A stretch of 63,981 nucleotides of DNA, filler included, from a bacterium (GTDB lineage Bacteria; JBBIVP01), in NCBI GenBank assembly GCA_037439705.1. It is 5 parts of 5 records of this genome, joined end to end, with 100 filler letters (N's around TTAATTAATTAA, not from the genome) between each part and the next. Parts side by side here need not be neighbours in the genome. Positions count along the whole stretch, not along the records: positions 14,604 to 28,747 come from JBBIVP010000033.1; 4 more parts are not named here. One strand, 5' to 3'. The position numbers and the translations under genes are program-made. The notes below the pieces were generated by a model, which was given only the letters and a program-made list of their open reading frames with translations, was not told where the DNA came from and made no database searches. Below are positions 14,332-26,921 of this stretch, one piece after another (the stretch's first letter is position 1; the number at the start of each line of letters is the position of its first letter).

Positions 14332-14503
14332 TTTTTTATTATCTCTCCTGTTCAAAAAATTTCAACAAAAAACAAATTCTATATTCACACAAAATTTTTA
14401 TAACTTCCTTTACATCATTGCAAGGCTGGTTCTTTTTATTTTGTAGACACACATAGACATTGTTACCAGGGGAAAGGGATAAAATTGGATGAAAAGGTTT
14501 TTT

Positions 14504-14603
14504 NNNNNNNNNNNNNNNNNNNNNNNNNNNNNNNNNNNNNNNNNNNNTTAATTAATTAANNNNNNNNNNNNNNNNNNNNNNNNNNNNNNNNNNNNNNNNN
14601 NNN
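14504..14603. other. Artificial contig linker
   Basis: N44-TTAATTAATTAA-N44, stops in all six frames; identical at four sites. Confidence 0.98.
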
Positions 14604-14604
14604 T

Positions 14605-14655
14605 CAATCCAACGCCCTGAACGGTTCCTTTCACCAGTATTTTTGATGCCTTCAT
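14605..14655 (-). CDS. hypF: 5' fragment of probable HypF (acylphosphatase-like N-terminus), cut by the contig end
   Basis: Manual translation gives MKASKILVKGTVQGVGL (VxGxVQGVG motif). Divergent from a [NiFe]-hydrogenase operon. A stand-alone acylphosphatase is also possible. Confidence 0.6.
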
Positions 14656-14724
14656 TGATTTTATCTTATGAAATTTCTAATCCAAAGGCAAAGATTATTG
14701 ATTTTCTTGAAATGAATTTTTGAT

Positions 14725-14733
14725 TGTTATAAT
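14725..14733 (+). promoter_or_regulatory. Extended -10 promoter of the redox operon
   Basis: TGTTATAAT, with TTGAAA 15 nt upstream of the TATAAT hexamer; AAGGAG SD before ATG 14818. Confidence 0.55.
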
Positions 14734-14817
14734 GTTTTACTGGGAATAGGGTGGGATTAAAGGAAGGGGAGGTAGAAAGATGGATTTTGGGAGGAAGAAA
14801 AATCAAGGAGAGAAAAG

Positions 14818-15981
14818 ATGAAGAAGGGAAGAGTTTATCCAGGATTTGTCTATGAGGTAAAAAAGTATGGAAGATTTGATTTCACAGGTTGTTACAACTG
14901 CGGAACCTGTCCTCAAGTATGCGCTCTCTCTTCAGATAGTGCCCCTTTTCCAAGAAGACCAATTCAGTTTGCGCTCCTCGGATTGAGGGATGAGATGTTA
15001 AAGAGCCTTGAACCGTGGCTATGTCATGATTGTGGGGATTGTTCAAAGTGGTGTCCAAGGGAGAATGAGCCACAGCATTCAATGGCAACCCTTAGAAGGT
15101 TTCTCCTTGCTCAATATGACTGGACAGGAATTGCAAAGTGGATAATGAGGTCAAAGGTTTTACATTTCAGTCTATTATTTTTGACAGCAATTCTATTTCT
15201 CCTTCTCGTATGGGTTTATCATACCTTCATTGACCCGGATGTTAGAGGAACCATATCAACAAAGGAATTTTTATCTACCCCTATGGATTTATCCCATATG
15301 TTTTCAAGCCCATATCCTATTATGCTATATTTTACCCTCTTTGTTATCCTTTTCCCGATTTTTATTTTAGGAGTAAATCTGTTCAGGATGTGGAGGTGGA
15401 CGATGGCAGATTTGAGGATTCCATTTTCAATATATCTAAGGGAATTCATAACTTATATAAGGCACTCTGTAACCCATGAGAATATAAGAAAGTGTGAGGA
15501 AACAAAAGAGAGGTGGCTCCCACACTGGCTTATGGCTTTGGGATGTGTGATGATGCTTTTTATTCTGGTATTTGCATTAAAATGGTTTCAGACAGATAAG
15601 GTTCATCCTGTTTATCATCCCCAGAGATGGCTTGGATATATTGCAACAATTTTTATGCTCTATGGCTCAGGTGATGCGCTTTTGAGCAGGATAAGAAAAA
15701 AATCGGTTGTTCATAAGTATTCTGAATTCAGCGATATCACATTTCCGCTTCTTCTCTTCCTTGTTGCTTTGAGTGGAATTGTCCTTCACATATTTAGAAT
15801 TTTAGGGCTTTCACTTGCAACCCATTATGCTTACGCAGTTCACATAGCAATAACCATTCCAATGCTTCTTGTTGAACTTCCATTTGGAAAGTGGTCTCAC
15901 ATGATTTACAGACCAATGGCAATCTATTTTCAGAAAGTTAAAGAAAGTGTGATGGAAAAACAGATTAGGGAGGTAGCATGA
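14818..15981 (+). CDS. QmoC-like quinone-interacting membrane subunit (2x[4Fe-4S] plus cytochrome b-type TM domain)
   Basis: CYNCGTCPQVC and CHDCGDCSKWCP, followed by about six TM helices with candidate heme His residues (WLPHW, VLHIF, VHIAI, KWSHMIYRP). Confidence 0.8.
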   Translation: MKKGRVYPGFVYEVKKYGRFDFTGCYNCGTCPQVCALSSDSAPFPRRPIQFALLGLRDEMLKSLEPWLCHDCGDCSKWCPRENEPQHSMATLRRFLLAQYDWTGIAKWIMRSKVLHFSLLFLTAILFLLLVWVYHTFIDPDVRGTISTKEFLSTPMDLSHMFSSPYPIMLYFTLFVILFPIFILGVNLFRMWRWTMADLRIPFSIYLREFITYIRHSVTHENIRKCEETKERWLPHWLMALGCVMMLFILVFALKWFQTDKVHPVYHPQRWLGYIATIFMLYGSGDALLSRIRKKSVVHKYSEFSDITFPLLLFLVALSGIVLHIFRILGLSLATHYAYAVHIAITIPMLLVELPFGKWSHMIYRPMAIYFQKVKESVMEKQIREVA

Positions 15982-16853
15982 GCAAAACAAAAATAGGAGC
16001 AGCAATGGTAGTGGGAGGAGGGGTTGGAGGAATTCAGGCAGCCCTTGACCTCGCTGAGGCTGGAATAAAGGTCTATCTTGTAGAAGATAAACCATCCATA
16101 GGTGGTGTAATGTCACAACTGGATAAGACATTTCCGACGAATGACTGCGCTATGTGCACATTGGCACCGAGGCTTGTCGGTGTTGGAAGGCATAAGGACA
16201 TAGAGATAATCTCCCTTTCGGAGATAGAAAAAATTGAGGGAGAGCCCGGAAATTTCAGGGTAACTTTGAAGAGAAAGCCGAGATATGTTGATGAGGAGAA
16301 ATGCACTGGTTGTGGAACATGCGTTTCAAACTGTCCTACAAGAAACAGGGTTCAACCGCTTGAGCCCTCACCCATTGAGATTGAGCATGAGTTTAGAGAT
16401 AAGGTTGTGGAAATCGTTCAGAGGAATAAAGGAAGGGATGGACCGCTTATGCCAATTCTTCAGGAGATAAATGCTACATTCAACTACCTTCCTGAAAGTG
16501 CATTAAGATATGTAGCCAAAGAAACTGGTTATCCTCTTTCTCATATTTTAAGAATTGCCACATTCTACAGTGCATTCAGCATTACGCCGAGGGGAAAATA
16601 TGTAATAAATGTGTGCATAGGCACAACATGTTATGTGAGAGGTGCTGATAAACTTATGGAGAGATTTAGGGATGAGTTGAAAATAAAAGAAGGGGAAACA
16701 ACACCTGACAGGCTCTTCACATTGAGAGGAGTAAGGTGCATAGGTTGCTGTGGACTTGCCCCTGCTCTTATGGTGAATGAAGAGGTTCACGGAAAGGTCA
16801 CAATTCCTCATGTAAGAGAGATTATAAACAAATATAAAAAGGAGGCGGCATAA
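15978..16853 (+). CDS. Fusion of an HdrA N-terminal fragment with a NuoE/HydC-type [2Fe-2S] domain
   Basis: aa 1-120: GGGVGG, DKTFPTNDCAMC, RYVDEEKCTGCGTCVSNCP. Remainder: ATFYSAF, CIGTTC, CIGCCGLAP. Confidence 0.88.
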   Translation: MSKTKIGAAMVVGGGVGGIQAALDLAEAGIKVYLVEDKPSIGGVMSQLDKTFPTNDCAMCTLAPRLVGVGRHKDIEIISLSEIEKIEGEPGNFRVTLKRKPRYVDEEKCTGCGTCVSNCPTRNRVQPLEPSPIEIEHEFRDKVVEIVQRNKGRDGPLMPILQEINATFNYLPESALRYVAKETGYPLSHILRIATFYSAFSITPRGKYVINVCIGTTCYVRGADKLMERFRDELKIKEGETTPDRLFTLRGVRCIGCCGLAPALMVNEEVHGKVTIPHVREIINKYKKEAA

Positions 16854-17236
16854 TGCCGAAGCTCACAATTGATGAATTGAGAAGGAAAAGGGAGGATGCT
16901 AAGAAGGGGTTATATTTAAGGGAGGGAGAATTCAAGGGAAAGGTGATAGTTCATATGGGAACCTGCGGAATAGCTGCTGGAGCGAGAAATATCCTATCAG
17001 CATTCCTTGAGGAATTGGAAAAGAGTGGAAGAAAGGACATAATGATAACAACAAGTGGATGTGCAGGGTTGTGTTCAAGGGAGCCTATGGCTACAGTGGA
17101 AATCCTTGACAAACCGCCTGTCAAGTATGTTGACCTCACTCCTGACAAAGTCAGAAAAATTTTCAGGGAGCACCTTTTGGAAGGCAAAATAGTTGTTGAA
17201 TACGCCCTTGGAATAGGTTCTGAAAGGGGAGGATAG
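16853..17236 (+). CDS. Thioredoxin-fold ferredoxin subunit (HydD/HndB-like)
   Basis: VHMGTCGIAAGA...SGCAGLCSREP. Confidence 0.85.
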   Translation: MPKLTIDELRRKREDAKKGLYLREGEFKGKVIVHMGTCGIAAGARNILSAFLEELEKSGRKDIMITTSGCAGLCSREPMATVEILDKPPVKYVDLTPDKVRKIFREHLLEGKIVVEYALGIGSERGG

Positions 17237-17238
17237 AT

Positions 17239-19116
17239 ATGGCTGTAAGAAGGATAGAACTTATGTTATGCACAGGAACAGGCTGTGTCGCAGGTGGGGC
17301 ATACAAGATAAAGGATGCCCTTGAGAAGGAACTGAAAAAGCACGGGCTTGATAAGGAAATATCAATTGTTATTACAGGATGTAATGGCTTCTGCGGACAG
17401 GGTCCGCTTATGGTTGTTGAGCCCGATAAAATTTTTTATGGTTGGTTGAAGCCCGAAGACATACCACATCTCGTTGAGGAGCATTTTCTAAAGGGAAGAC
17501 CTGTTAAAAAACTGATGTTCGTTCCACCTGAAAAGAAGGAACCCGTTCCATTAGTTTCAGATATTTCATTCTTTAAGAAACAGTACCTTATTGTCTTAAA
17601 GAACAAGGGAATGATAGACCCAGAGAAGATAGAGGAATACATTGCAAGGGATGGATATGCAGCCCTTGAGAAGGTTTTGACATATATGGACCCCGAATCT
17701 GTCATTGAGGAAATAAAGAAATCTGGATTAAGGGGAAGGGGAGGTGCAGGATTTCCAACTGGAATCAAATGGGAAGTGTGCAGGAAACAACCAAAAACCC
17801 CCAAGTTCATAGTAGGCAACTGCGACGAGGGAGACCCAGGTGCTTATATGGACAGAAGCGTTTTTGAATCAGACCCCCATTCTGTTATTGAGGGAATGAT
17901 AATTGGAGGATATGCAATAGGTGCAAATAAGGGATATATATATGTGAGGACTGAATACCCACTGGCAATTCAGAGGATGAAGCTCGCAATTCAACAGGCA
18001 AGGGATTATGGGCTCCTTGGAGAAAACATTCTCGGTTCAGGATTCAGTTTCGACCTTGAGATAAGAGAGGGTTCTGGCGCATTCGTCTGCGGTGAAGAGA
18101 CATCACTTATTCATTCCATAGAAGGAAAATCTCCTGAACCACGACAGAGACCACCTTTTCCTGCACAGGAAGGAGTATGGGGATGTCCAACGGTTATAAA
18201 CAATGTTGAGACATGGGCTAATGTTCCAGTAATCATTCTCAGGGGTGCAGAATGGTTTTCAAGCATAGGAACGAAAACGAGCAAGGGGACGAAGATATTC
18301 TCTCTCGTCGGAAAGATAAACAATACAGGTCTCATTGAGGTTCCAATGGGGATAACCCTTAGAGAGATAATTTATGAGATAGGAGGAGGGATTCCGAAGA
18401 ATAAGAAGTTCAAGGCAGTTCAAACAGGTGGTCCATCAGGTGGATGCATACCAGCATCACTTATAGACCTTCCAATTGACTATGAGAGCTTAACAGAAGC
18501 GGGCTCAATGATGGGTTCAGGAGGAATGATTGTGATGGATGAGGAAACCTGTATGGTTGATGTGGCGAAGTTCTTCATACAGTTTACAAACGATGAATCC
18601 TGTGGAAAGTGCTCTACCTGCAGGGAAGGAAGCGAGGCCATGCTTGAGGTTCTAACCAGGATTACAGAAGGAGAAGGAAGGGAAGGGGATATTGAGTTCC
18701 TTGAGGAACTCGGTCAGGTTGTAAAAGATGCCTCAATGTGTGGACTCGGTAAGACCCTTCCAAACCCTGTTCTTTCTACAATAAGGTATTTCAGGGATGA
18801 GTATGAGGCTCACATTAAGTATAAAAGATGCCCTGCACTGGTCTGCAAGAATCTGATCAAATATTACATCCTTCCAGAAAAGTGTATAGGATGTACTGTT
18901 TGTATGAAGGAATGCCCTGTAAATGCTATAAAGGGACAGACGAAATACATTCATATTATAGACCAGTTGCTGTGCACAAAATGTGGAACCTGCATAGAAG
19001 TTTGTCCTCCAAAGGTATCAGCAATCATTAAGGTCACAGGAAAGGAAGCAGAAGAATTACAAACCATTCCGGAACCCATTCCAGTAGTAGAATTTAAAAA
19101 GAGGAGTAAAAAATGA
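17239..19116 (+). CDS. Long NuoF/HydB/HndC-type FMN- and NAD(P)H-binding subunit
   Basis: N-terminal CTGTGC..GCNGFC domain, GRGGAGFP, DEGDPGAYMD, GGPSGG, ESCGKCSTCREG and C-terminal 2x[4Fe-4S]. Confidence 0.92.
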   Translation: MAVRRIELMLCTGTGCVAGGAYKIKDALEKELKKHGLDKEISIVITGCNGFCGQGPLMVVEPDKIFYGWLKPEDIPHLVEEHFLKGRPVKKLMFVPPEKKEPVPLVSDISFFKKQYLIVLKNKGMIDPEKIEEYIARDGYAALEKVLTYMDPESVIEEIKKSGLRGRGGAGFPTGIKWEVCRKQPKTPKFIVGNCDEGDPGAYMDRSVFESDPHSVIEGMIIGGYAIGANKGYIYVRTEYPLAIQRMKLAIQQARDYGLLGENILGSGFSFDLEIREGSGAFVCGEETSLIHSIEGKSPEPRQRPPFPAQEGVWGCPTVINNVETWANVPVIILRGAEWFSSIGTKTSKGTKIFSLVGKINNTGLIEVPMGITLREIIYEIGGGIPKNKKFKAVQTGGPSGGCIPASLIDLPIDYESLTEAGSMMGSGGMIVMDEETCMVDVAKFFIQFTNDESCGKCSTCREGSEAMLEVLTRITEGEGREGDIEFLEELGQVVKDASMCGLGKTLPNPVLSTIRYFRDEYEAHIKYKRCPALVCKNLIKYYILPEKCIGCTVCMKECPVNAIKGQTKYIHIIDQLLCTKCGTCIEVCPPKVSAIIKVTGKEAEELQTIPEPIPVVEFKKRSKK

Positions 19117-22100
19117 AAAGCGTTGAGGTAATTATAAATGAAAAGAAGGTTGAGGAGGGGACAAAGCTCATAAATGCAATTGAAAAGGCTGGATTCTCTG
19201 TTCCTATTCTTTGCTATCACAAAGTCCTCTCTCCTTACGGTGCGTGCAGGTTGTGCCTTGTTGAAGTAAAGACCCCCGGAAGGGCTCCTGCCCTTCAGGC
19301 TTCATGCTCCTATCCCGTTCATGAGGGGATTGAGGTTTTGACAGATACAGAGAGGGTTAAAAAGGCAAGAATAATGGTTGCAGAGCTTCTCCTTGCAAGG
19401 TGTCCTGATTCAGACCTCATAAAAACCATTGCATATGCACACGGTGTTAAGGAGCCGAGGATAAGGAAAAAGAACGATGACTGCATCTATTGTGGCCTGT
19501 GCGTGAGAATGTGTGAAGAGAGGATGGGAAGAAGCGCAATAGGATTTACTGGAAGGGGTCCAAGAAAGAAGCTTGAGCCCCCATTTGGAAAGCACAATGA
19601 GATGTGCTGGACCTGCGGTGCTTGCAATTTTATATGTCCTGTTGGAAAGAAGGTTACAGTTCTAACTACAAAAAGACCATTCATTCCAATTCCAAATACC
19701 TTCAATATGGGTCTTGACTCAAGACCATCCATTTTCATCCTTTATCCACAGGCAGTTCCAAATAAGGCAATGATAGACAAAAATACATGTATCCATCTTA
19801 ATTATGAAGCCTGTGGAATATGTAAAGAGGTGTGCCCTGCTGGTGCAATAAATTATGAGGATAAGGAAAAGAAAATAGAATTAAATGTTGGAGCAATAAT
19901 TGTTGCTCCAGGATATGAACCATTTGATGCAAAATTGAAAGAGGAATATGGATACGGAAAATATCCAAATGTGGTTTCTGCGCTTGAGTTTGAGAGAATC
20001 CTTTCAGCATCAGGTCCATATTCTGGAAATGTTTTAAGACCCTCTGATAAGAAGCATCCAAAAAGAATCGCATTCATCCAGTGCGTTGGGTCAAGGGATA
20101 ATGAGAGGGATTATTGCTCAGCAGTTTGCTGTATGTATGCAACGAAGGAGGCGGTGTATGTGAGGGCATACAGCAAGTTATTTGAAGCGTATTATGAAAC
20201 AGCAAAAAAACAGGGGGTTAGATACATAAGGTGTAGACCAGCAAAAATTGAGGAGGTCCCTGAAACCAGGAACTTGATAGTCCATTACCTTGAAGAAGGG
20301 GATAAAAAGGCTTCTCATGAATATGATATGGTTGTTCTTTCTGTTGGAATGCTTCCTCCAAAGAGTGCGAAAGAACTGGCAAAAAGACTTGGAATTGAAC
20401 TTAACGAGTTCAACTTCTGCAGAACCTCTGTCTTTTCTCCAGTAGAAACTGTAAGAGAAGGGATATATGTGGCAGGACCATTCACTGAACCAAAGGATAT
20501 TCCTGAAACCGTGATGCAGGCATCCGCATCCGCATCAAGGGTTCTCTCACTTCTTTCCGATGTAAAGGGAAGCCTTATAAAGGTAAAAGAATATCCACCT
20601 GAGATTGATGTAACTGGTCAGGAACCAAGAATAGGGGTATTTGTCTGCCACTGCGGAACAAACATAGCGGGTGTTGTAAATGTGCCTCAGGTTGTTGAGT
20701 ATGCAAAGACATTACCGAATGTCATATGGGCTGAAAACTTCCTTTATACCTGCTCAGCAGATGCATGCGAAAAGATAAAGGAAAGGATAAAGGAGTACAA
20801 TCTTAACAGGGTTATTGTAGCATCCTGCACGCCGAGAACCCACGAGGTATTGTTTAGAAGCGTAATAAGGGAAGCAGGGTTAAATGAGTATCTCTTTGAG
20901 ATGGCAAACATAAGAGACCAGTGTTCATGGGTGCACATGGAGGAGAAGGAAAAATCCACAAAGAAAGCAAAGGACCTTGTGAGAATGGCAGTTGCAAAGG
21001 CAGTGCTCCTTGAACCCCTTCAGAAAGGGAAACTTCCAATAACAAAGGGGGCACTTGTTATAGGAGGTGGACTTGCTGGAATGACATCTGCATTAGAACT
21101 TGCTGAACAGGGATACAATGTCTACCTCGTTGAAAAGGAGAAGGAACTTGGAGGGAATCTGAGAAATATAAGGTATCTTTTCAATGGAGAAGACCCGCAG
21201 AGGGAACTAAGAGGAATAATTGATAAGGTTAAAGGAAATCAAAAAATCCATCTCTTCCTTGAATCAAAGGTTGAAAGCGTTGAGGGTTCTGTTGGAAACT
21301 TTAAAACAAGTATAAAAACGAAGGATGGAATAAAAGAGGTTGAGCACGGGGTTGTTATAATAGCAGTTGGAGCGAAGGAATATAAACCAAAGGAGTACCT
21401 CTACGGAGAAGACAGAAGGGTTATCACTCAGAGGGAGCTTGAGGAGAAGATTTCAAGTGAGGGAATCTCCTCTCCAAAGACATTTGTTATGATTCAGTGT
21501 GTAGGTTCAAGGGATGAAGAAAGACCTTATTGCTCAAGGATATGCTGTAATGAGGCAGTGAAGAATGCCTTGAAGATAAAGGAAATTTCCCCTGAATCAA
21601 ATGTCTACCTTCTTTACAGGGACATAAGGACATACGGTTTTAAGGAAAGTTATTACACTAAGGCGAGAAAAGAGGGCGTTGTTTTCATAAGATACAGGGA
21701 GGACAGAAAGCCTCAGGTTTCAAAAGATGGAGATAAACTTATAGTTAGCGTTTATGATTCCATCCTTGGAATGGAGGTTGAAATCCCAACAGATTTTCTT
21801 GTTCTTTCAGCAGGGGTTGTTCCTTATGAAGACAACAAAGAGGTTGCGCAGCTCTTTAAGGTTCCACTCACTCAGGACAAATTCTTCCTTGAGGCGCACA
21901 TAAAATTGAGACCCGTTGATTTTGCAACAGAGGGGGTGTTTCTCGCAGGGCTTGCCCATTCCCCAAAACTTATTGAGGAAAGTGTGATTCAGGCTCAGGC
22001 ATCAGCAGCAAGGGCGAGCACAATCCTTTCCCATGACCACCTTGAACTTGAGGCAAACATTTCTCACATAATTGATGAAAACTGTGATGGATGTGCATAC

Positions 22101-22313
22101 TGTGTTGACCCATGTCCATTTAAAGCAATCACACTTCTTGAATATATGTGGCAGGGCTCAATAAAGAAGGTTGTCGAGGTTAACGAAAGCCTATGCAAGG
22201 GTTGTGGATGCTGTATGGCTACCTGTCCAAAGAGGGGAGCAATGGTTAAAGGTTTCACCCTTGACCAGATAAGCGCACAGATTAATGCAGCTCTTGAATC
22301 AATGGAGGTGTGA
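19113..22313 (+). CDS. Fusion of a NuoG/HydA N-terminal Fe-S domain with the remainder of a double-module HdrA
   Basis: aa 1-180: CYH..GACRLC..ASC plus 2x[4Fe-4S]. Then PQAVP, EFER, QCVGSRD..CSAVCC, VFVCHCG, ASCTPR, NIRDQC, a second GGGLAG/QCVGSRD..CSRICC module and a C-terminal ferredoxin. Confidence 0.88.
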   Translation: MKSVEVIINEKKVEEGTKLINAIEKAGFSVPILCYHKVLSPYGACRLCLVEVKTPGRAPALQASCSYPVHEGIEVLTDTERVKKARIMVAELLLARCPDSDLIKTIAYAHGVKEPRIRKKNDDCIYCGLCVRMCEERMGRSAIGFTGRGPRKKLEPPFGKHNEMCWTCGACNFICPVGKKVTVLTTKRPFIPIPNTFNMGLDSRPSIFILYPQAVPNKAMIDKNTCIHLNYEACGICKEVCPAGAINYEDKEKKIELNVGAIIVAPGYEPFDAKLKEEYGYGKYPNVVSALEFERILSASGPYSGNVLRPSDKKHPKRIAFIQCVGSRDNERDYCSAVCCMYATKEAVYVRAYSKLFEAYYETAKKQGVRYIRCRPAKIEEVPETRNLIVHYLEEGDKKASHEYDMVVLSVGMLPPKSAKELAKRLGIELNEFNFCRTSVFSPVETVREGIYVAGPFTEPKDIPETVMQASASASRVLSLLSDVKGSLIKVKEYPPEIDVTGQEPRIGVFVCHCGTNIAGVVNVPQVVEYAKTLPNVIWAENFLYTCSADACEKIKERIKEYNLNRVIVASCTPRTHEVLFRSVIREAGLNEYLFEMANIRDQCSWVHMEEKEKSTKKAKDLVRMAVAKAVLLEPLQKGKLPITKGALVIGGGLAGMTSALELAEQGYNVYLVEKEKELGGNLRNIRYLFNGEDPQRELRGIIDKVKGNQKIHLFLESKVESVEGSVGNFKTSIKTKDGIKEVEHGVVIIAVGAKEYKPKEYLYGEDRRVITQRELEEKISSEGISSPKTFVMIQCVGSRDEERPYCSRICCNEAVKNALKIKEISPESNVYLLYRDIRTYGFKESYYTKARKEGVVFIRYREDRKPQVSKDGDKLIVSVYDSILGMEVEIPTDFLVLSAGVVPYEDNKEVAQLFKVPLTQDKFFLEAHIKLRPVDFATEGVFLAGLAHSPKLIEESVIQAQASAARASTILSHDHLELEANISHIIDENCDGCAYCVDPCPFKAITLLEYMWQGSIKKVVEVNESLCKGCGCCMATCPKRGAMVKGFTLDQISAQINAALESMEV

Positions 22314-22314
22314 A

Positions 22315-22740
22315 ATGGGAGAACAGGAAAAAAAGTTTGAGCCTTTTATCATCGCCTTCTGCTGTAACTGGTGCTCCTATGCAGGAGCGGATTTAGCAGG
22401 AGTATCAAGGCTTCAGTACCCGCCAAATGTTAGAATTATAAGGGTTATGTGTTCTGGTATGGTTCATCCAAATCTCGTCATAGATGCTTTGACAAAGGGC
22501 GCGGATGGCGTCATAATGTGTGGCTGTCATCCAGGTGATTGTCATTATCGGGAAGGAAATCTCAAGGCTCAGAAAAGGGCAGAGGGAATCCACCTTATGC
22601 TTGATGACCTCGGAATTGAAAGGGAAAGGTTCAGGCTTGAATGGGTTTCTGCCTCTGAGGGAATTAAATTCGCCCAGGTAATTAGTGAGTTTACTGAACA
22701 GATAAGAAAACTCGGACCAAATCCTATGAAAGGAGGGTAG
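22315..22740 (+). CDS. mvhD: MvhD [2Fe-2S] subunit
   Basis: FCCNWCSY..AD.AG, RVMCSG, GCHPGDCHY, WVSASE. Start set at MGEQ. Confidence 0.94.
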   Translation: MGEQEKKFEPFIIAFCCNWCSYAGADLAGVSRLQYPPNVRIIRVMCSGMVHPNLVIDALTKGADGVIMCGCHPGDCHYREGNLKAQKRAEGIHLMLDDLGIERERFRLEWVSASEGIKFAQVISEFTEQIRKLGPNPMKGG

Positions 22741-22742
22741 AG

Positions 22743-22943
22743 ATGAGGGTGAAAATAGTTGAGAGAAAAAAATTTATGTGGGATGGTAATGAATATAAGA
22801 CTGAAGAAGAGGCAAAGGATGCAATGCTCAAGTATAAATCTGATGGATTTGAGGTCCTAATGGAGAAAGGAGGTGATAAATACTACCTTTATACAAGAAG
22901 GGTTGCAGCGCAGGTGGTGGTTGAAGGAACTCCACCTGTTTAA
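22743..22943 (+). CDS. Small hypothetical protein (66 aa)
   Basis: Has its own SD (AGGAGG) and fills the mvhD-mvhG gap. Confidence 0.7.
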   Translation: MRVKIVERKKFMWDGNEYKTEEEAKDAMLKYKSDGFEVLMEKGGDKYYLYTRRVAAQVVVEGTPPV

Positions 22944-22961
22944 AAATAAAGGAGGTGAATC

Positions 22962-23885
22962 ATGGCTGTAAGAGTAGCAGAAGAGTGGTTCGCCATATGT
23001 GGGGGTTGTGAGGTCACAATCCTTGACATAGGCGAAAAGCTTCTTGACCTTCTGCCAAACCTTCAATTCGTCCATATCCCAGTTTTAATGGACCACAAGG
23101 TTTTCGGGCAGAAGGGAGAGAAGAAAAAGATGGAGATTCCACAGGCAGATGTTGGAATCATCGCGGGCTCAATAAGGAATGAGGAGAACAGGGAACTGGC
23201 GAAGGAGATGAGGGCAAAGTGCAAAACCCTTATTGCTCTTGGCTCCTGTGCCTGCTACGGAGGAATTCCCGCACTCGCAAACCTCTTCAAGTTAGATGAC
23301 CTATTGAAAAAGGTTTACAAGGAATCAAAGTCAACAGACCCAGCAGAGCCTCCCAAAGATAATATTCCATCTCTCGCCGACAGGGTGTATGCACTTGATG
23401 AGATTGTGAAGGTGGATGTCTATATCCCTGGATGCCCAACATCCCCAGACCTCGTAGTTGATGCCCTGACAGCCCTTCTTCAGGGAAAGCCATTTACCCT
23501 TCCAGAAAGGAGCGTATGCGATGACTGCCCAACACAGAGACAGAAGAAGGCGGACATCCAGCTGAAGAGACCCCTTGAGTCTGTGACAGACATAAGTAAG
23601 CCAGTGAATAAATCAAGGTGTTTTATGGAACTCGGTTATCTTTGCTTAGGACCAGTGACAAAATCAGGATGTGGAGGTCATGAAAAGGTTCCAAGATGCA
23701 TAAAGGGCTACATGCCATGCAGGGGCTGTTTCGGTCCAATCAGAAAGGGCGCAAATCCACTCGTTGAGATGATGGGAGCACTCTCAAGCATAGGGCTTGA
23801 TGCAAAGGTAATTGCTGACAGGGCACCCACAATTCAGAGGTACATAGGCGGGCACGGAAGGCTGAAACCAACGCCTGCAAGATAA
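22962..23885 (+). CDS. mvhG: Group 3c [NiFe]-hydrogenase small subunit
   Basis: CGGCE, GSCA, PGCP, VCDDC, CLGPVT..GC, CRGC. Strong SD AAAGGAGGTGA. Confidence 0.9.
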   Translation: MAVRVAEEWFAICGGCEVTILDIGEKLLDLLPNLQFVHIPVLMDHKVFGQKGEKKKMEIPQADVGIIAGSIRNEENRELAKEMRAKCKTLIALGSCACYGGIPALANLFKLDDLLKKVYKESKSTDPAEPPKDNIPSLADRVYALDEIVKVDVYIPGCPTSPDLVVDALTALLQGKPFTLPERSVCDDCPTQRQKKADIQLKRPLESVTDISKPVNKSRCFMELGYLCLGPVTKSGCGGHEKVPRCIKGYMPCRGCFGPIRKGANPLVEMMGALSSIGLDAKVIADRAPTIQRYIGGHGRLKPTPAR

Positions 23886-23900
23886 AAAGGAGGTGAAAAA

Positions 23901-25346
23901 ATGGGAGAAAGAATAGTAATACAACCAGTATCAAGGATTGAAGGGCATGCAAAGATAACAATTCAACTTGATGATGTAGGAAATGTGGAGAACACATGGG
24001 TGAATGTGATTGAACTAAGGGGATTTGAGAAGTTCTGTATAGGAAGACCTGTTGAGGAACTTCCGAGGATTATGACAAGCATATGCGGAGTCTGCCCATG
24101 GTCCCTCCACCTTGCCAGTGCAAAAGCAAATGATGCTGTATTCGGCGTTAAAATCCCACCCGCAGCAAAGAAACTGAGAGAACTATGCAATTCAATCGCC
24201 TATACAGAGGAACACATCCTTCACTTCTATTTCCTCGCAGGAGCGGACTTTGTAATGGGTCCGGATGCAGATTATTCAGTCAGGAATGTAATTGGAATAG
24301 CCCAGAAGCTTCCAGATGTTGCTAAGAGGGTTGTGAGGTGCAGGTGGCTCGGAGCAGAGATGCTTCAAATAGTTTCTGGAAAATCAATCCATCCTGTTAC
24401 AGCGGTTCCTGGTGGGTTCAGCAAGCCTTTGACAAAAGAAGAGGTTGAAAAATTAAAACCTATGGCTCAGGAGGTTCTTGACCTTGCAAAGTTTACAATT
24501 GATTATGCAAAGAAGAACATCTTTCCACAGTATCTTGATGCAGTAAAGACGCTCGGCGTAATAAAGACAGGCTTTCTCGGAACTGTAAGAGAGGATGGAA
24601 CATGGGATGTTTATGATGGAAAACTGAGGATGATGAACCCTGACGGAACCTACCTTGACTTCAAATATGAGGAATACACCGATTACATAGCAGAGCACAT
24701 TGAACCATGGTCATATCTGAAATTCCCCTATATGAAGAAGGCTGGAAAAATTGTTATGGACATTGACAATCCCGTTGGGGTTTACAGAACCAATACCCTT
24801 GCGAGGATAAATGTTTGTGATAAGATGCCAACCCCACTTGCTCAGGCTGAGCTTGAGGAGTTCAGGAAGAACTTCGGAAGACCAGCACAATTGACCCTCC
24901 TTTATCATTGGGCAAGGCTGATTGAACTTCTTGCAAATGCAGAATATGTGGTTCAACTTCTTAATGACCCTGAAATAACGAGCACAGATATAAGGGTTCC
25001 TGTTAAACCCAGAGCTGCAAGGGGAGTTGGATGCGTTGAGGCACCAAGGGGAACACTCATTCACGATTATGAGACAGACGAAAATGGAATTGTTACAAAT
25101 GTCAACCTCATAGTTGGAACAACACATAACAATGCTGCAATCAATATGTCCGTTAAGAAATCTGCGAAGGAGCTCATAAAGAATGGTAAGTATGATGAGG
25201 GAATACTAAACAAACTTGAAATGGCAATAAGGGCTTATGACCCATGCCTTTCCTGCGCCACCCACAAGCTTGATGGTTCTATACCAGTTAAAGTAACAGT
25301 CATAGGACCTGATTACCAGATCATAGATACCCTTAAGAACTTCTGA
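23901..25346 (+). CDS. mvhA: Group 3c [NiFe]-hydrogenase large subunit
   Basis: RIEGH, RGFE, ICGVC (L1), EAPRG, DPCLSCATH (L2) followed by a cleavable tail. Confidence 0.93.
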   Translation: MGERIVIQPVSRIEGHAKITIQLDDVGNVENTWVNVIELRGFEKFCIGRPVEELPRIMTSICGVCPWSLHLASAKANDAVFGVKIPPAAKKLRELCNSIAYTEEHILHFYFLAGADFVMGPDADYSVRNVIGIAQKLPDVAKRVVRCRWLGAEMLQIVSGKSIHPVTAVPGGFSKPLTKEEVEKLKPMAQEVLDLAKFTIDYAKKNIFPQYLDAVKTLGVIKTGFLGTVREDGTWDVYDGKLRMMNPDGTYLDFKYEEYTDYIAEHIEPWSYLKFPYMKKAGKIVMDIDNPVGVYRTNTLARINVCDKMPTPLAQAELEEFRKNFGRPAQLTLLYHWARLIELLANAEYVVQLLNDPEITSTDIRVPVKPRAARGVGCVEAPRGTLIHDYETDENGIVTNVNLIVGTTHNNAAINMSVKKSAKELIKNGKYDEGILNKLEMAIRAYDPCLSCATHKLDGSIPVKVTVIGPDYQIIDTLKNF

Positions 25347-25350
25347 TTTT

Positions 25351-25377
25351 AGGGGGGTTAACCCCCCTTTTCTTTTT
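25351..25377 (+). terminator. Intrinsic terminator after mvhA
   Basis: AGGGGGG-TTAA-CCCCCCT hairpin followed by TTTCTTTTT. Confidence 0.8.
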
Positions 25378-25851
25378 ATGAAGCCAAAAAGGATAATCGT
25401 TTTAGGGTGTGGGAATGTGTTGTTTGGAGATGATGGATTTGGTCCAGAGGTTGTAAAATTTCTTAACGAAAATTTTAAAATTCCTGATGATGTTGAGGCT
25501 ATTGATGCTGGAACGAGTGTTAGAAACATACTTTTTGACCTGGTTTTAAATCCGTCAAGGCCCGAGAAGGTTATTATAGTGGACGCAGTTGACATTGGAA
25601 GAACTCCGGGTGAGGTTTTTGAAATTGACATTTCATCAATTCCACCTATAAAAATTGATGACTTTTCAATGCACCAATTGCCAACATCAAGTCTCTTAAG
25701 GGAATTGAAGGATATATGCGGCGTTGATGTGAGAATAATATGCGTTCAGGTTCAGCATATTCCAGAAGAGGTGAAGCCTGGACTTTCAGATGTAGTAAAA
25801 AAGGCAATTCCCGTTGCCTGCGAAAGGATTTTAAAAGAAATTATTGATTAA
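25378..25851 (+). CDS. Hydrogenase maturation protease
   Basis: GCGNVLFGDDGFG, IDAGT, VDAV, SMH. Confidence 0.93.
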   Translation: MKPKRIIVLGCGNVLFGDDGFGPEVVKFLNENFKIPDDVEAIDAGTSVRNILFDLVLNPSRPEKVIIVDAVDIGRTPGEVFEIDISSIPPIKIDDFSMHQLPTSSLLRELKDICGVDVRIICVQVQHIPEEVKPGLSDVVKKAIPVACERILKEIID

Positions 25852-25859
25852 AATTTTCT

Positions 25860-25888
25860 TTGAAAATTAATTCTTAAGGGTTTAAAAT
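25860..25888 (+). promoter_or_regulatory. Sigma70-type promoter (candidate leaderless)
   Basis: TTGAAA-17 nt-TAAAAT, 7 nt before ATG 25896. Confidence 0.6.
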
Positions 25889-25895
25889 TTTCCAA

Positions 25896-26921
25896 ATGAA
25901 GCCTAATATATGCGTGATAGGGGCTGGATACTGGGGAAAAAACATTGTTAGGACTATTTACGAAATGGAATGCCTCTACGGAGTTTGCGAGATAGATATT
26001 AAAAAGATTGAAAAATTAAAAAATGAATATGAGTTCAAAGCATTTACCAACTTGAAGGATGCACTCAGAGACGAGAATATAGAAGGATATGCCATTGCTG
26101 TTCCTCCCTCTTCCCTTCCAAAAGTTGCTCTTGAGGTTTTGAAAAGAGAAAGGCATGCCTTTGTTGAAAAACCGCTTTCCCTTTCCTTAAAGGGAATAGA
26201 AAGGATGATGGAACTTTCAGAGAAACACGGAGTAGTTCTCATGGGGGGCTACATTCTTCTTTATAACGATGCCCTGTCGTTCATAAAAAACTGGTTCAAA
26301 TCCGAAAAACCCAGAACCTACTACATCTATTCCCAGAGACTTAACCTCGGAATAATAAGAAATGATGTGAATGTCTGGTGGAGTCTTGCTCCTCACGATG
26401 TTTCAATAATGAATTATCTGTTTGATGAAAAACCAGATTTCATCAGGGCATGGGGTTCTTCCTTCATAAGAAATGGTATAGAGGATGTTGTTCTGGGAGA
26501 GATTTCCTATTCGGACGGGATGAGGGTATACATTCATGTAAGCTGGATTGATCCGTGCAAGGTGAGAAGAACGGTATTCATTACGGACAAAGGAATGATA
26601 GAATTTGATGATACAAGGGCTGATGATAAGGTAAGGATTCATAAAAAAACCGTTGAAAAAAAGGAGGTTGAAAAGGGGCTTGGAGATTTTTCCTCTTTTG
26701 CTGAATTTCAGGTGATTCTCCGTTCAGGAGATACATTTATTCCAGCAATAAGGGTCAGGGAACCTTTGAAGGTTGAATTAGAGCATTTTGTTGATTGCAT
26801 AATCAAAAAGAAAAAGCCGCTCACAGATGGTTTATTTTCGTATCAGGTTTTAAAAGTCATCTCCGCCGGGGAAAGGGCTTTAAAATCCGAAAAAGGGGTG
26901 AGGATAAATTGGGAGAGATAA
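25896..26921 (+). CDS. Gfo/Idh/MocA-family oxidoreductase (sugar-nucleotide dehydrogenase-like)
   Basis: GAGYWG, VEKP, RLNLG, LAPHD. Confidence 0.88.
   Translation: MKPNICVIGAGYWGKNIVRTIYEMECLYGVCEIDIKKIEKLKNEYEFKAFTNLKDALRDENIEGYAIAVPPSSLPKVALEVLKRERHAFVEKPLSLSLKGIERMMELSEKHGVVLMGGYILLYNDALSFIKNWFKSEKPRTYYIYSQRLNLGIIRNDVNVWWSLAPHDVSIMNYLFDEKPDFIRAWGSSFIRNGIEDVVLGEISYSDGMRVYIHVSWIDPCKVRRTVFITDKGMIEFDDTRADDKVRIHKKTVEKKEVEKGLGDFSSFAEFQVILRSGDTFIPAIRVREPLKVELEHFVDCIIKKKKPLTDGLFSYQVLKVISAGERALKSEKGVRINWER

What the first reader, a model, noticed from the sequence alone, without database searches (positions are those of the whole stretch)
14818..25851. Candidate undescribed redox complex: QmoC + HdrA + HydBCD-type NADH module + Mvh hydrogenase in one operon, without HdrBC
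Seen: nine tightly packed co-directional genes behind one promoter, ending in a terminator and a maturation protease, with a probable hypF divergent. No hdrB, hdrC, aprAB or qmoAB lies in the operon. Known: MvhAGD-HdrABC, HydABC and QmoABC are normally three separate systems, and HdrA and HydBC each carry a distinct flavin-based bifurcation site. Inference: one membrane-anchored assembly could link H2, NAD(P)H, ferredoxin and quinone, with the QmoC-like subunit replacing HdrBC as the high-potential branch. I do not recognise this combination as characterised.
Basis: partly seen in the sequence, partly recalled or inferred. Interest (0 to 1): 0.88.

Follow-up and report, generated by a model that had tools for sequence, protein, structure and literature searches.

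The report
Quinone-linked hydrogenase with split HdrA
A ten-gene operon encodes what looks like one membrane-anchored hydrogen-handling enzyme, built by cutting the electron-splitting flavoprotein HdrA open and inserting a second NADH/ferredoxin electron-splitting module; the design is widespread in uncultured anaerobes but has never been studied at the bench.

Summary
The operon is real and lies on one 14,144-base contig (14604-28747). It has ten genes, not nine: a conserved 66-aa ORF (22743-22943) was missed. The "divergent hypF" is wrong. That gene is a histone-deacetylase-family gene on a different contig, joined by an artificial N/TTAATTAATTAA linker.

HdrA is a fused pseudo-dimer whose first unit is split inside its inserted ferredoxin domain. 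Its N-piece is fused to BfuC/NuoE. Its remainder is fused behind a BfuA/NuoG-like N-terminus. The HndB-like and BfuB genes lie between them.

Of 80 related loci, 41 share this fusion. Upstream of the split gene, 22 of 26 readable loci carry the QmoC-like gene and 4 carry hdrC-hdrB in the same slot. A complex model (0.70; best control 0.00) places the QmoC-like FeS domain on HdrA.

Best reading: H2 feeds HdrA bifurcation, which sends electrons to menaquinone (via the QmoC-like subunit) and to the Bfu module (NAD+/ferredoxin).

Closest characterised relative: class II benzoyl-CoA reductase, which has the same two modules wired differently.

Caveats: there is no biochemistry, and the window's HdrA gene has a private 17-aa gap.

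This scan has noted the same design on other DNA (8 notes). It is a new variant of a known kind.

The parts
14504..14603 (.). Artificial contig linker (N44-TTAATTAATTAA-N44). Sequence to its left belongs to another contig.
14818..15981 (+). Gene 1: QmoC-like membrane subunit. It has an N-terminal HdrC-like 2x[4Fe-4S] domain and a 5-6-helix cytochrome-b-type domain.
   Evidence: NCBIfam qmoC gives 199.9 bits over the full length, below the 300-bit cut-off. Residues 7-95 match HdrC of solved Hdr complexes. Eight Cys and His160/236/342/361 are conserved in 28-29 of 29 homologues, and hydropathy shows the helices.
15978..16853 (+). Gene 2: N-terminal piece of HdrA unit 1 fused to a BfuC/NuoE/HydC-type [2Fe-2S] domain. 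The HdrA piece holds the FAD Rossmann start, the Cys57/Cys60 pair and the first CxxCxxCxxxCP motif of the inserted ferredoxin domain.
   Evidence: Residues 8-121 align with HdrA 142-255 (8rvv_A) / 145-258 (5odc_A). Residues 141-287 align with 7t2r_C 10-156.
16853..17236 (+). Gene 3: small thioredoxin-like ferredoxin-family protein (HndB/HydD-like). It has only three Cys (38, 70, 74).
   Evidence: PF01257 E 3.2e-4, below cut-off; Cys positions; conserved next to gene 2 in 30 of 41 type-A loci
17239..19116 (+). Gene 4: full-length BfuB/HydB. It has an N-terminal [2Fe-2S] domain, an FMN/NADH core and a C-terminal 2x[4Fe-4S] domain.
   Evidence: 864 bits, gapless over residues 1-590, against HydB of the bifurcating NiFe-HydABCSL (7t2r_B)
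19113..19646 (+). Gene 5, residues 1-178: BfuA/NuoG-N-terminal-like part, with a [2Fe-2S] domain and a 2x[4Fe-4S] ferredoxin-like domain.
   Evidence: Residues 15-178 align with 9mqx_A 18-181 (E 7.6e-36); PF13510 and Fer4 hits; Cys positions
19659..20561 (+). Gene 5, residues about 183-483: the remainder of HdrA unit 1. It holds the second cluster motif of the inserted ferredoxin domain and the rest of the FAD/TrxR domain, and has no C-terminal ferredoxin domain. A private 17-aa gap follows residue 349 (about base 20159).
   Evidence: Alignment to 5odc_A 249-510. The gap is absent from 37 of 37 homologues and from the 90%-identical P0122.
20619..22313 (+). Gene 5, residues about 503-1066: HdrA unit 2. 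It has the N-terminal cluster domain, a FAD/TrxR domain without the Cys pair and without an inserted ferredoxin domain, and the C-terminal 2x[4Fe-4S] domain.
   Evidence: Alignment to 5odc_A 2-237 and 397-646; GxGxxG at residue 651
22285..22740 (+). Gene 6: MvhD ([2Fe-2S] adaptor). The real start is probably the ATG at 22315, one base after the stop codon of gene 5 (which ends at 22313).
   Evidence: PF02662 E 4.8e-57; VhuD 141 bits; homologues are 136-144 aa long
22743..22943 (+).
   Evidence: tblastn finds it in 39 of 80 loci; alignment of 35 sequences; model pLDDT 84; no family or fold match
22962..23885 (+). Gene 7: MvhG-type [NiFe]-hydrogenase small subunit.
   Evidence: PF01058; VhuG 219 bits
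23901..25346 (+). Gene 8: MvhA-type [NiFe]-hydrogenase large subunit, with a C-terminal extension for protease processing.
   Evidence: VhuA 473 bits. Best solved relatives are 9sw2_F and 5odc_F (428 bits) and 7t2r_D (411 bits). RIEGH at residue 12 and DPCLSCATH at 447.
25351..25378 (+). Terminator-like GC-rich hairpin plus T-run, between mvhA and the protease gene.
25378..25851 (+). Gene 9: FrhD/HycI-type hydrogenase maturation endopeptidase.
   Evidence: TIGR00130 at 138.4 bits, above the 134.95 cut-off; PF01750

Best explanation
The operon encodes one membrane-anchored, multi-flavin [NiFe]-hydrogenase complex.

Shown by sequence:
- An Mvh-type hydrogenase (MvhA, MvhG, MvhD).
- An asymmetric HdrA pseudo-dimer. 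Unit 1 carries the Cys pair and the inserted ferredoxin domain but lacks the N- and C-terminal domains. Unit 2 carries the N- and C-terminal domains but lacks the Cys pair and the inserted domain.
- A complete Bfu/HydBC-type NADH-ferredoxin module whose genes sit inside HdrA unit 1. That unit is split between the two cluster motifs of its inserted ferredoxin domain, and each half is fused to a Bfu subunit.
- A QmoC-like subunit (two [4Fe-4S] clusters and two haems b) in the slot that hdrC-hdrB occupy in sister loci.

Inferred mechanism: H2 is oxidised at MvhAG. [quoted passage not shown] The high-potential electron goes through the TrxR-domain cluster and the QmoC-like FeS domain and haems to menaquinone. 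The low-potential electron goes through the N-terminal-domain cluster and the reassembled inserted ferredoxin domain into BfuA, and then to BfuBC, which reduces NAD+ and/or ferredoxin.

In effect, the downhill reduction of quinone boosts H2 electrons to the roughly -400 to -500 mV level that a Bfu module needs. NADH and reduced ferredoxin could then be made even from trace H2. The machine may be reversible.
For: Fusions and split: gene 2 residues 8-121 align with HdrA 145-258, ending at the first ferredoxin motif. Gene 5 residues 168-428 align with HdrA 249-510 (the HdrA remainder proper runs from about residue 183; the first few aligned residues are a shared cluster motif). Gene 5 residues 503-1057 form a second HdrA.

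BfuB is collinear with A. mobile HydB, with all Cys aligned (864 bits). BfuC and BfuA parts match as well.

Domain complementarity (N-terminal domain against Cys197) matches the heterodimer logic described for fused and tandem HdrA. That paper also states the route MvhD -> C-terminal ferredoxin domain -> FAD -> HdrBC or inserted ferredoxin domain (PMC9012536 passages).

Conservation: 41 of 80 related loci carry the BfuA::HdrA fusion. Twenty-nine show the gene-2 fusion. Eleven have the whole set including mvhGA within 9 kb. MAG labels span Aminicenantes, Bacteroidota, Desulfobacterota/Syntrophia and Thermoplasmata. This argues against a chimeric contig.

The same insertion site holds a GltD/NfnB-like NAD(P)H module in 7 loci that also carry QmoC-like and mvhDGA genes.

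QmoC-like and HdrCB are interchangeable by position: 22 against 4 of 26 readable loci.

QmoC-like protein: 8 Cys and 4 His are conserved in 28-29 of 29 sequences.

Complex model: QmoC-like residues 5-100 against HdrA scored 0.70, best of 3 controls 0.00. That mark was reached by 58 of 80 solved complexes and 2 of 110 mismatched pairs. The three runs share at least 91% of contacts and the partner's pLDDT is at least 82. Contacts include gene-5 residues 328-330, beside the Cys324 cluster motif of unit 1, and 830-892 of unit 2.

Five genomes with the operon: AprA above cut-off in 0 of 5, and CCG-domain genes absent from one. MenA or MqnA is above cut-off in 3 of 5, with sub-threshold MenA-family hits in the other 2.

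A reviewed statement says that characterised group 3c hydrogenases oxidise H2 in cells (PMC11216029 passage).

Potentials (H2 -414 mV, menaquinone -74 mV, ferredoxin about -500 mV, NADH about -280 to -320 mV) come from PMC9304861 and the PMC10734219 abstract.
Against: - No biochemistry, no structure and no expression data exist. No RNA run was listed.
- The direction of electron flow and which flavin bifurcates are inferred only.
- The complex model may pass from memory, because HdrA-HdrC complexes are solved (5ODC, 8RVU).
- The window's own gene 5 lacks 17 conserved residues four positions after the invariant Lys345. If the gap is real, unit 1 may be damaged.
- Gene 3 has only 3 Cys.
- In 9 loci with QmoC-like to MvhD genes, no mvhGA lies within 9 kb. 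In three Aminicenantes-type loci (L018, L026, L028; L026 carries hdrCB rather than the QmoC-like gene) a 71-73%-identical mvhA fragment lies about 9 kb away on the other strand. The hydrogenase may therefore be a loosely attached partner.
- In the one characterised enzyme that combines both modules (BCRII), the Bfu module feeds HdrA's input side, not its low-potential arm.
- The QmoC-like protein is below NCBIfam's qmoC cut-off, and quinone reactivity is untested.
- The window's own genome is not held, so its quinone and ferredoxin inventory is unknown.
Confidence: 0.58

Rival explanations
1. The same complex works physiologically in reverse. Menaquinol (high-potential arm) and NADH/reduced ferredoxin through Bfu (low-potential arm) are confurcated at HdrA to make H2. 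This would dispose of quinol-level electrons in fermenters and syntrophs.
For: Many carriers are labelled as syntrophic or fermentative lineages, such as Syntrophorhabdales, Syntrophaceae, Aminicenantes and Bacteroidota. Bfu and Nfn-type enzymes are reversible (PMC5861303 passage). Confurcation of menaquinol with a low-potential donor was proposed for Qmo (PMC3333476 passages). BCRII uses its Bfu module in the confurcating direction.
Against: My own arithmetic from the published potentials: menaquinol at -74 mV needs a partner near -530 mV to reach even -300 mV, whereas NADH plus ferredoxin confurcation delivers only about -400 mV. Characterised group 3c hydrogenases consume H2.
Confidence: 0.15
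2. One complex, but without energy coupling. It is a plain H2:NAD+ and/or H2:menaquinone oxidoreductase in which the HdrA flavins and Bfu clusters serve only as wires.
For: Reduction of both NAD+ and menaquinone by H2 is exergonic at standard potentials. Some HdrABC-containing and NuoF-containing complexes are thought not to bifurcate (PMC5861303 passage). In BCRII one of the two BamE flavins does not bifurcate.
Against: BfuB keeps every extra cluster domain that separates bifurcating Bfu enzymes from plain NuoF/HoxF (criterion from the PMC9304861 passage). Both HdrA units keep the FAD motif, the cluster motif and the invariant Lys. Conserving so elaborate a design across phyla is hard to explain for a simple wire.
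Confidence: 0.12
3. The functional unit is QmoC-like + HdrA + Bfu + MvhD, an NADH/ferredoxin:quinone oxidoreductase. The Mvh hydrogenase would be a separate or exchangeable partner that merely shares the operon here.
For: In 9 of the loci that have QmoC-like to MvhD genes, no mvhGA lies within 9 kb. mvhGA sits upstream instead of downstream in L002, L006, L013 and L060. MvhD accompanies HdrA/HdrL in organisms without Mvh (PMC2702500 passage).
Against: In the window, mvhG starts 18 bases after the small ORF that follows mvhD, and the protease gene follows mvhA. Eleven loci keep the full set. Three Aminicenantes-type loci still have a 71-73%-identical mvhA fragment about 9 kb away.
Confidence: 0.08
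4. In this particular genome the complex is defective, or the sequence is misassembled. The 17-aa gap in HdrA unit 1 is either a damaging deletion or an assembly artefact.
For: The gap is absent from 37 of 37 aligned homologues and from a 90%-identical relative. It removes nearly invariant residues next to the FAD-site Lys. The record is a draft pseudomolecule with N-runs.
Against: The reading frame stays open, and all other genes are intact with conserved cofactor ligands. The complex model still folded these chains with pLDDT 84.
Confidence: 0.07

Closest known systems
Class II benzoyl-CoA reductase Bam[(BC)2DEFGHI]2 of Geobacter metallireducens ('Bam-Bfu')
   Same: It is the only characterised enzyme that joins a HydBC/Bfu-type module (BamGHI) to an HdrA-type module. 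BamE is a fused HdrA dimer with one bifurcating and one non-bifurcating FAD, a Cys59-Cys62 pair in the N-terminal unit, and an MvhD-like adaptor (BamF). Source: bioRxiv 10.64898/2026.04.10.717634, abstract and sections 6-7. Gene 2 plus gene 5 here have the same order of HdrA units, and a Cys57/Cys60 pair.
   Different: In BCRII the Bfu module feeds the C-terminal ferredoxin domain and adaptor, which is the input side. The inserted ferredoxin domain feeds the tungsten enzyme BamBC. The high-potential exit is BamD (HdrBC-like), leading to ETF. Here the Bfu module is spliced into the inserted ferredoxin domain, the input side carries a [NiFe] hydrogenase, the high-potential exit is a QmoC-like cytochrome b, and there is no tungsten enzyme. 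HdrA is also split across two genes.
MvhAGD-HdrABC of methanogens (PDB 5ODC, 8RVU, 9SW2)
   Same: MvhA, MvhG, MvhD and HdrA are the best solved matches. The domain set and cluster motifs of HdrA are all present once in the pseudo-dimer.
   Different: There is no HdrB or HdrC. HdrA is an asymmetric fused dimer. The exit to free ferredoxin is occupied by a Bfu module. The predicted acceptor is a quinone rather than a heterodisulfide.
QmoABC of sulfate reducers
   Same: It has two HdrA-like flavoprotein units, an MvhD-like element, and QmoC (an HdrC-like FeS domain plus a di-haem membrane domain) that reacts with menaquinone (PMC3333476 passages). Gene 1 matches the qmoC model end to end.
   Different: The score is below the qmoC cut-off (199.9 against 300 bits). 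There is no aprAB in the operon, and AprA is above cut-off in 0 of 5 related genomes. A hydrogenase and a Bfu module are attached.
Electron-bifurcating NiFe-HydABCSL of Acetomicrobium mobile (PDB 7T2R)
   Same: BfuB, BfuC and the BfuA N-terminus are its closest solved relatives. The large hydrogenase subunit is nearly as close to HydL (411 bits) as to MvhA (428 bits).
   Different: There the hydrogenase docks directly on HydA. Here MvhD and an HdrA pseudo-dimer with a quinone branch are interposed.
HdrL of Desulfobacterium autotrophicum, and the HdrA-NfnB fusions (HdrA9-11) of ANME-1
   Same: An NAD(P)H-binding GltD/NfnB-like module is inserted into HdrA's inserted ferredoxin domain, followed by mvhD (PMC2702500 passages; PMC9012536 passages). 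Seven sister loci of this operon have exactly that, together with QmoC-like and mvhDGA genes.
   Different: In the window the insert is a four-gene Bfu cassette that splits the gene, rather than a domain within one polypeptide.
EtfABCX / FixABCX
   Same: It is a functional analogue: flavin-based bifurcation with menaquinone or ubiquinone as the high-potential acceptor and ferredoxin as the low-potential acceptor (abstracts in the listing; PMC9304861 passage).
   Different: The proteins are unrelated, and the donor is NADH rather than H2.

Membership tests
Bfu family (BfuABC; Schut et al. 2022) | BfuB with an FMN/NADH core plus the extra clusters that plain NuoF/HoxF lack (an N-terminal [2Fe-2S] domain and a C-terminal 2x[4Fe-4S] domain) | tested here: met
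   Gene 4 aligns without gaps over residues 1-590 with 7t2r_B (864 bits), and the Cys are aligned. Pfam finds an N-terminal 2Fe-2S_thioredx domain and a C-terminal Fer4 pair. The criterion comes from the PMC9304861 passage.
Bfu family (BfuABC; Schut et al. 2022) | BfuC (NuoE-like [2Fe-2S]) and BfuA (a [2Fe-2S] cluster plus [4Fe-4S] clusters) are present | tested here: met
   Gene 2 residues 141-287 align with 7t2r_C 10-156. Gene 5 residues 15-178 align with 9mqx_A 18-181. Which A-clusters are present was not resolved.
Bfu family (BfuABC; Schut et al. 2022) | Coupled NAD+/ferredoxin reduction (bifurcating activity) | not testable with these tools
   This needs an enzyme assay.
HdrA / fused HdrA dimer (BamE-like) | FAD-binding GxGxxG motif and the TrxR-domain cluster Cys motif in each unit | tested here: met
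   GxGxxG at gene 2 residue 13 and gene 5 residue 651. Cys324/335/339/340 and Cys796/807/811/812 are invariant in 38 sequences.
HdrA / fused HdrA dimer (BamE-like) | [quoted passage not shown] | tested here: met
   the rule comes from PMC9012536 passages
HdrA / fused HdrA dimer (BamE-like) | A lysine at the flavin N5, the hallmark of the bifurcating FAD | tested here: inconclusive
   Lys345 and Lys817, which follow the CC motif, are invariant. Equating them with the hallmark Lys (Lys280 of BamE) rests on my own mapping and recall, not on a structure. The window's 17-aa gap starts 4 residues after Lys345.
MvhAGD-HdrABC | HdrB with CCG domains (non-cubane clusters, the disulfide site), plus HdrC | tested here: not met
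   PF02754 is absent from all nine proteins. No HdrB-like match exists in the window. Four sister loci do have hdrC-hdrB in the QmoC slot.
QmoABC | QmoC equivalog score | tested here: not met
   NF038018 gives 199.9 bits against a cut-off of 300, although it covers the full length.
QmoABC | Two [4Fe-4S] motifs and four His for two haems b in a multi-helix membrane domain | tested here: met
   This rests on ligand conservation only; haem content is untested.
QmoABC | Genetic and functional link to AprAB | tested here: not met
   None lies on the contig. AprA is above cut-off in 0 of 5 genomes that carry the operon. The window's own genome is not held.
Class II benzoyl-CoA reductase | Tungsten aldehyde-oxidoreductase-type BamB with BamC | tested here: not met
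   No such family is found among the operon proteins or the three downstream genes.
Group 3c [NiFe]-hydrogenase | NiFe-site motifs, and closest relatives among Mvh/Vhu | tested here: met
   RIEGH and DPCLSCATH motifs. The best solved hits are 9sw2_F and 5odc_F. VhuA gives 473 bits, below its 800-bit equivalog cut-off. The HydL of 7T2R is almost as close.
Group 3c [NiFe]-hydrogenase | HydDB classifier assignment | not tested

The most novel reading that the evidence does not exclude
This is a two-stage redox amplifier and the first quinone-linked HdrA-type bifurcating hydrogenase. In stage 1, HdrA with the QmoC-like subunit uses menaquinone reduction to lift electrons from trace H2 (about -270 to -300 mV at a few Pa) to about -450 to -500 mV. 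In stage 2, the spliced-in Bfu module splits these electrons again between NAD+ and ferredoxin. The module order is the opposite of that in benzoyl-CoA reductase. This would explain what the abundant bacterial 'group 3c' hydrogenases without HdrBC do in sediments and the subsurface.
Probability: 0.33. Interest if true: 0.85.

Novelty: new variant of a known kind. Interest (0 to 1): 0.66.

Why it matters
Bacterial Mvh-type (group 3c) hydrogenases are common in metagenomes and are routinely annotated as 'MvhADG/HdrABC', even where no HdrBC exists (for example PMC7509429, passage). The fusion proteins here are named only 'NADH:ubiquinone oxidoreductase subunit E' or 'heterodisulfide reductase subunit A' in databases.

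If the reading holds, many anaerobes across several phyla own a hydrogenase that ties H2 to the quinone pool, NAD(H) and ferredoxin at once. That would change energy budgets in models of sediment, subsurface and digester communities.

It would also be a second natural example, with the reverse wiring, of stacking two electron-bifurcation modules. That principle was shown only in 2026, for benzoyl-CoA reductase.

The positional swap between the QmoC-like gene and hdrCB gives a natural experiment for how HdrA's high-potential branch is re-targeted.

Tried and rejected
- Whole-genome look-up of the window: no genome is held. Taxonomy and the organism's quinone and ferredoxin genes are therefore unknown. 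The listing of cluster members gave no names.
- Sequencing runs: only two DNA runs of one study hold small shares (0.09 and 0.06), and no RNA holder is listed. Laid contigs are pieces of 150-250 bases. They bridge only the gene 2/3 junction and the mvhA/protease junction, and do not cover the 17-aa gap. This gives no read-level test of contiguity or of the gap.
- Promoter scan: the count is no higher than in shuffles.
- Small 66-aa protein: Pfam, NCBIfam, the ESM Atlas (only 'hypothetical protein' clusters, best score 0.90) and Foldseek against the PDB (no match at E <= 0.001) gave nothing.
- Literature: ten searches. No paper holds QmoC+MvhD+NuoF, and none holds 'QmoC-like'+hydrogenase. Papers holding HdrA+MvhD+NuoF, or 3 or more of HdrA/MvhADG/NuoEF/QmoC, were sampled by passages and treat these as separate systems.
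- The review by Appel et al. 2021 (BBA 1862:148379) is not held, and Pereira et al. 2011 was not seen. Supplements (for example the Bfu clade tables of PMC9304861) were not available. Any of these may list this gene cluster.
- Considered and rejected: a chimeric contig (the synteny recurs in independent MAGs); three separate enzymes (the fusions argue against it); a Qmo-Apr system (no AprA).

Full report
**1. What is at the coordinates**

The window is a pseudomolecule. Contigs are joined by N44-TTAATTAATTAA-N44 linkers at 14504-14603, 28748-28847, 42903-43002 and 56696-56795. The operon lies on the contig 14604-28747. Its length of 14,144 bases equals the contig length that the protein database records for these proteins.

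They overlap or are separated by at most 31 bases. The supposed 222-base gap between mvhD and mvhG holds a tenth gene: a 66-aa ORF at 22743-22943. tblastn finds it in 39 of 80 related loci, usually straight after mvhD.

A GC-rich hairpin with a T-run lies at 25351-25368, between mvhA and the protease gene. Promoter-like sites are no more frequent than in shuffles, and none lies in the 214 bases between the contig start and gene 1. 'One promoter' is therefore unverified.

The 'divergent hypF' is a histone-deacetylase-family gene (PF00850, E 1.9e-91). It is followed by archease and tig-clpP-clpX-lon, all on the neighbouring contig.

**2. Anatomy**

*Gene 1 (387 aa).* It matches NCBIfam qmoC end to end, but below the cut-off (199.9 against 300 bits). 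Its first 95 residues match HdrC of solved Hdr complexes. In 29 homologues, two CxxCxxCxxxC motifs and His160/236/342/361 are conserved in 28-29 sequences. Hydropathy gives 5-6 membrane helices. These are the expected ligands for two [4Fe-4S] clusters and two haems b.

*Gene 2 (291 aa).* It is a chimera. Residues 8-121 align with HdrA 145-258 of 5ODC. This stretch covers the FAD Rossmann start, the Cys pair equivalent to Cys194/Cys197, and the first cluster motif of the inserted ferredoxin domain, and stops exactly there. Residues 141-287 are a BfuC/HydC/NuoE domain.

*Gene 3.* It is a small thioredoxin-like protein with only three Cys.

*Gene 4.* It is collinear, without gaps, with HydB of the bifurcating NiFe-HydABCSL (7t2r_B, 864 bits). 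This includes the N-terminal [2Fe-2S] domain and the C-terminal 2x[4Fe-4S] domain, which plain NuoF lacks.

*Gene 5 (1066 aa).* It has three parts:
- It starts with a BfuA/NuoG-like N-terminus (residues 15-178 align with 9mqx_A).
- It continues with HdrA from just after the point where gene 2 stopped. This part holds the second cluster motif of the inserted ferredoxin domain and the rest of the FAD domain. It has no C-terminal ferredoxin domain.
- It ends with a second HdrA. [quoted passage not shown]

HdrA is therefore a fused pseudo-dimer. Its first unit has been cut inside the inserted ferredoxin domain by a four-gene Bfu cassette, and both cut ends are fused to Bfu subunits. The two pieces must reassemble to form one FAD domain and one 2x[4Fe-4S] domain.

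The complementary loss of domains follows the pattern described for tandem and fused HdrA heterodimers in ANME archaea (PMC9012536 passages). It also follows the pattern of BamE (bioRxiv 10.64898/2026.04.10.717634, section 7).

*Genes 6-9.* These are MvhD, MvhG, MvhA and an FrhD-type protease. MvhA has RIEGH and DPCLSCATH motifs. Its best solved relatives are 9sw2_F and 5odc_F at 428 bits, with 7t2r_D at 411 bits.

**3. Is it more than chance or a chimeric assembly?**

A scan of one genome per prokaryote species with gene 5 returned 80 loci. My synteny census sorted them into four groups:
- 41 carry the BfuA::HdrA fusion (type A).
- 11 were binned by gap size as carrying an insert at the same site (type B). 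A single roughly 1490-aa HdrA with a GltD/NfnB-like NAD(P)H module at that site was checked only in L034.
- 18 have an uninterrupted fused HdrA (type C).
- 10 are cut by contig ends.

Among type A loci, 29 show the gene-2 fusion, 30 show gene 3, 32 show BfuB and 36 show mvhD. Eleven have the complete set with mvhGA within 9 kb. The missing ones are mostly at contig ends.

The closest species-level locus, L001, has the window's gene order at 45-82% protein identity. MAG labels span Aminicenantes/Acidobacteriota, Bacteroidota, Desulfobacterota/Syntrophia and Thermoplasmata.

In the large protein collection, the best 120 hits to gene 2 are all fusions of 276-310 aa. They are named at most 'NADH:ubiquinone oxidoreductase subunit E'. 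Those to gene 5 are named 'heterodisulfide reductase subunit A' or 'FAD-dependent oxidoreductase'.

The architecture is therefore real and widespread.

**4. The role of the QmoC-like subunit**

A full-length QmoC-like gene accompanies type A (22 loci) and type B (7 of 11), and never type C (0 of 18).

In the 26 type A loci where the slot upstream of the gene-2 homologue can be read, 22 have the QmoC-like gene. Four (L014, L017, L023, L026) have hdrC-hdrB there instead. This positional interchange is the best evidence that the QmoC-like protein takes the place of HdrBC, the high-potential branch.

A complex model of QmoC-like residues 5-100 with gene-2 residues 5-122 and gene-5 residues 190-972 scored 0.70, with 0.00 for the best of 3 controls. 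That mark was reached by 58 of 80 solved complexes and 2 of 110 mismatched pairs. The runs agree in at least 91% of contacts, and the partner's pLDDT is at least 82. Contacts lie at gene-5 residues 328-330, beside the Cys324 cluster motif of unit 1, at 374-399, and at 790-892 of unit 2. HdrA-HdrC complexes are solved, so this pass shows likeness and not proof.

Five genomes that carry type A loci were searched:
- None has AprA above its cut-off.
- One has no CCG-domain gene at all.
- MenA or MqnA is above cut-off in three, and the other two have sub-threshold MenA-family hits.

**5. Mechanism**

Published wiring of Mvh-Hdr runs as follows. MvhD passes electrons to the C-terminal ferredoxin domain and then to FAD. 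From FAD one branch goes to HdrBC. The other goes through the N-terminal-domain cluster (completed by Cys197 of the partner) and the inserted ferredoxin domain to ferredoxin (PMC9012536 passages).

Mapped on the window, only one such path is complete:
- H2 -> MvhAG -> MvhD -> C-terminal domain of unit 2 -> flavin.
- High-potential branch -> QmoC-like FeS domain and haems -> menaquinone.
- Low-potential branch -> inserted ferredoxin domain (gene 2 plus gene 5) -> BfuA -> BfuBC -> NAD+ and/or ferredoxin.

The same loop houses a GltD-like NAD(P)H module in type B. In Aminicenantes-type loci, BfuB itself is fused to a GltD-like module in place of its ferredoxin-type domain (L016, L024). This arm is therefore the pyridine-nucleotide/ferredoxin port.

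With menaquinone (-74 mV) as the sink, H2 electrons could be raised to the level a Bfu module needs even at trace H2. This is my inference. The direction of flow, the identity of the bifurcating flavin and the quinone reactivity are not shown. The rivals are reverse operation, an uncoupled wire, a hydrogenase-free core, and a defective copy. They are listed with odds in the rival explanations.

**6. Caveat on this copy**

Gene 5 of the window lacks 17 residues after residue 349. These residues are present in 37 of 37 aligned homologues and in a 90%-identical relative of 1085 aa. The gap starts four residues after the invariant Lys345. It is either an assembly artefact of a draft record or a damaging deletion. 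The runs I could lay do not cover it.

**7. Comparison with what is known**

The closest characterised system is class II benzoyl-CoA reductase. It has a fused HdrA dimer (BamE), an MvhD-like adaptor, a HydBC-type module (BamGHI) and an HdrBC-like exit. There, however, the Bfu module feeds the input side and the inserted ferredoxin domain feeds the tungsten enzyme. Here the hydrogenase is at the input, the Bfu module is spliced into the output arm, and the high-potential exit is a membrane cytochrome b.

The other relatives each share one module: Mvh-Hdr, QmoABC, NiFe-HydABCSL and HdrL/HdrA-NfnB.

None of my ten paper searches found this combination described. The Appel 2021 review and paper supplements could not be seen.

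This scan has already noted the same design on other DNA: eight notes, returned. I reached the split-HdrA reading before seeing them. Their pointer to the 2026 BCRII preprint was useful, and I read that preprint myself.

**Verdict**

This is a new variant of a known kind: a widespread, uncharacterised assembly of known modules with unusual gene-level splicing. Interest 0.66.

Noticed in passing
window 14504-14603, 28748-28847, 42903-43002, 56696-56795: Artificial linkers (N44-TTAATTAATTAA-N44) join at least five contigs. Gene neighbourhoods across them are not real. Further N-runs lie at 8213-8237, 27344-27375 and 49824-49833.
   Followed up: yes
window 22743-22943 (+): A conserved 66-aa protein with no Cys, an invariant K10/W13/D14/F36/R52 pattern and a predicted beta-beta-alpha-beta-beta fold. 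It travels with this gene set in 39 of 80 loci, after mvhD, next to the QmoC-like gene or next to the protease gene. It has no family or fold match.
   Followed up: partly
window about 20159 (gene 5 after residue 349): A private 17-aa gap in a nearly invariant stretch of HdrA unit 1, absent from all 37 homologues and from a 90%-identical relative.
   Followed up: partly
window 16853-17236 (+): The small thioredoxin-like protein has only three Cys (38, 70, 74), where a [2Fe-2S] site would need four ligands. I did not check whether the homologues share this.
   Followed up: no
L007 7258-10007: In many type-A loci, 1.4-2.9 kb lie between bfuB and the BfuA::HdrA gene. In L007 these are five small genes (DRTGG, CBS+HATPase, an unknown 115-aa protein, PHP, HATPase), the kind of accessory genes seen in HydABC operons. 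The window lacks them.
   Followed up: partly
L016 6896-9985; L024 6071-9994: In Aminicenantes-type loci, BfuB is fused C-terminally to a GltD/NfnB-like module (Fer4_20 + Pyr_redox_2) in place of the 2x[4Fe-4S] domain. This hints at NADP(H) as a further substrate.
   Followed up: partly
L026 2824-5570: hdrC-hdrB sit where the QmoC-like gene sits elsewhere. hypA and hypB are divergent just upstream.
   Followed up: yes
window 7334-14355 (-): The neighbouring contig carries lon, clpX, clpP, trigger factor, archease and a histone-deacetylase-family gene. The N-run at 8213-8237 lies inside the lon ORF.
   Followed up: partly
window 25896-28427 (+): Downstream on the operon's contig lie a Gfo/Idh/MocA oxidoreductase, a hexapeptide-repeat transferase (cut by the N-run at 27344) and a TauE/SafE-family exporter. 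No link to the operon is evident.
   Followed up: no
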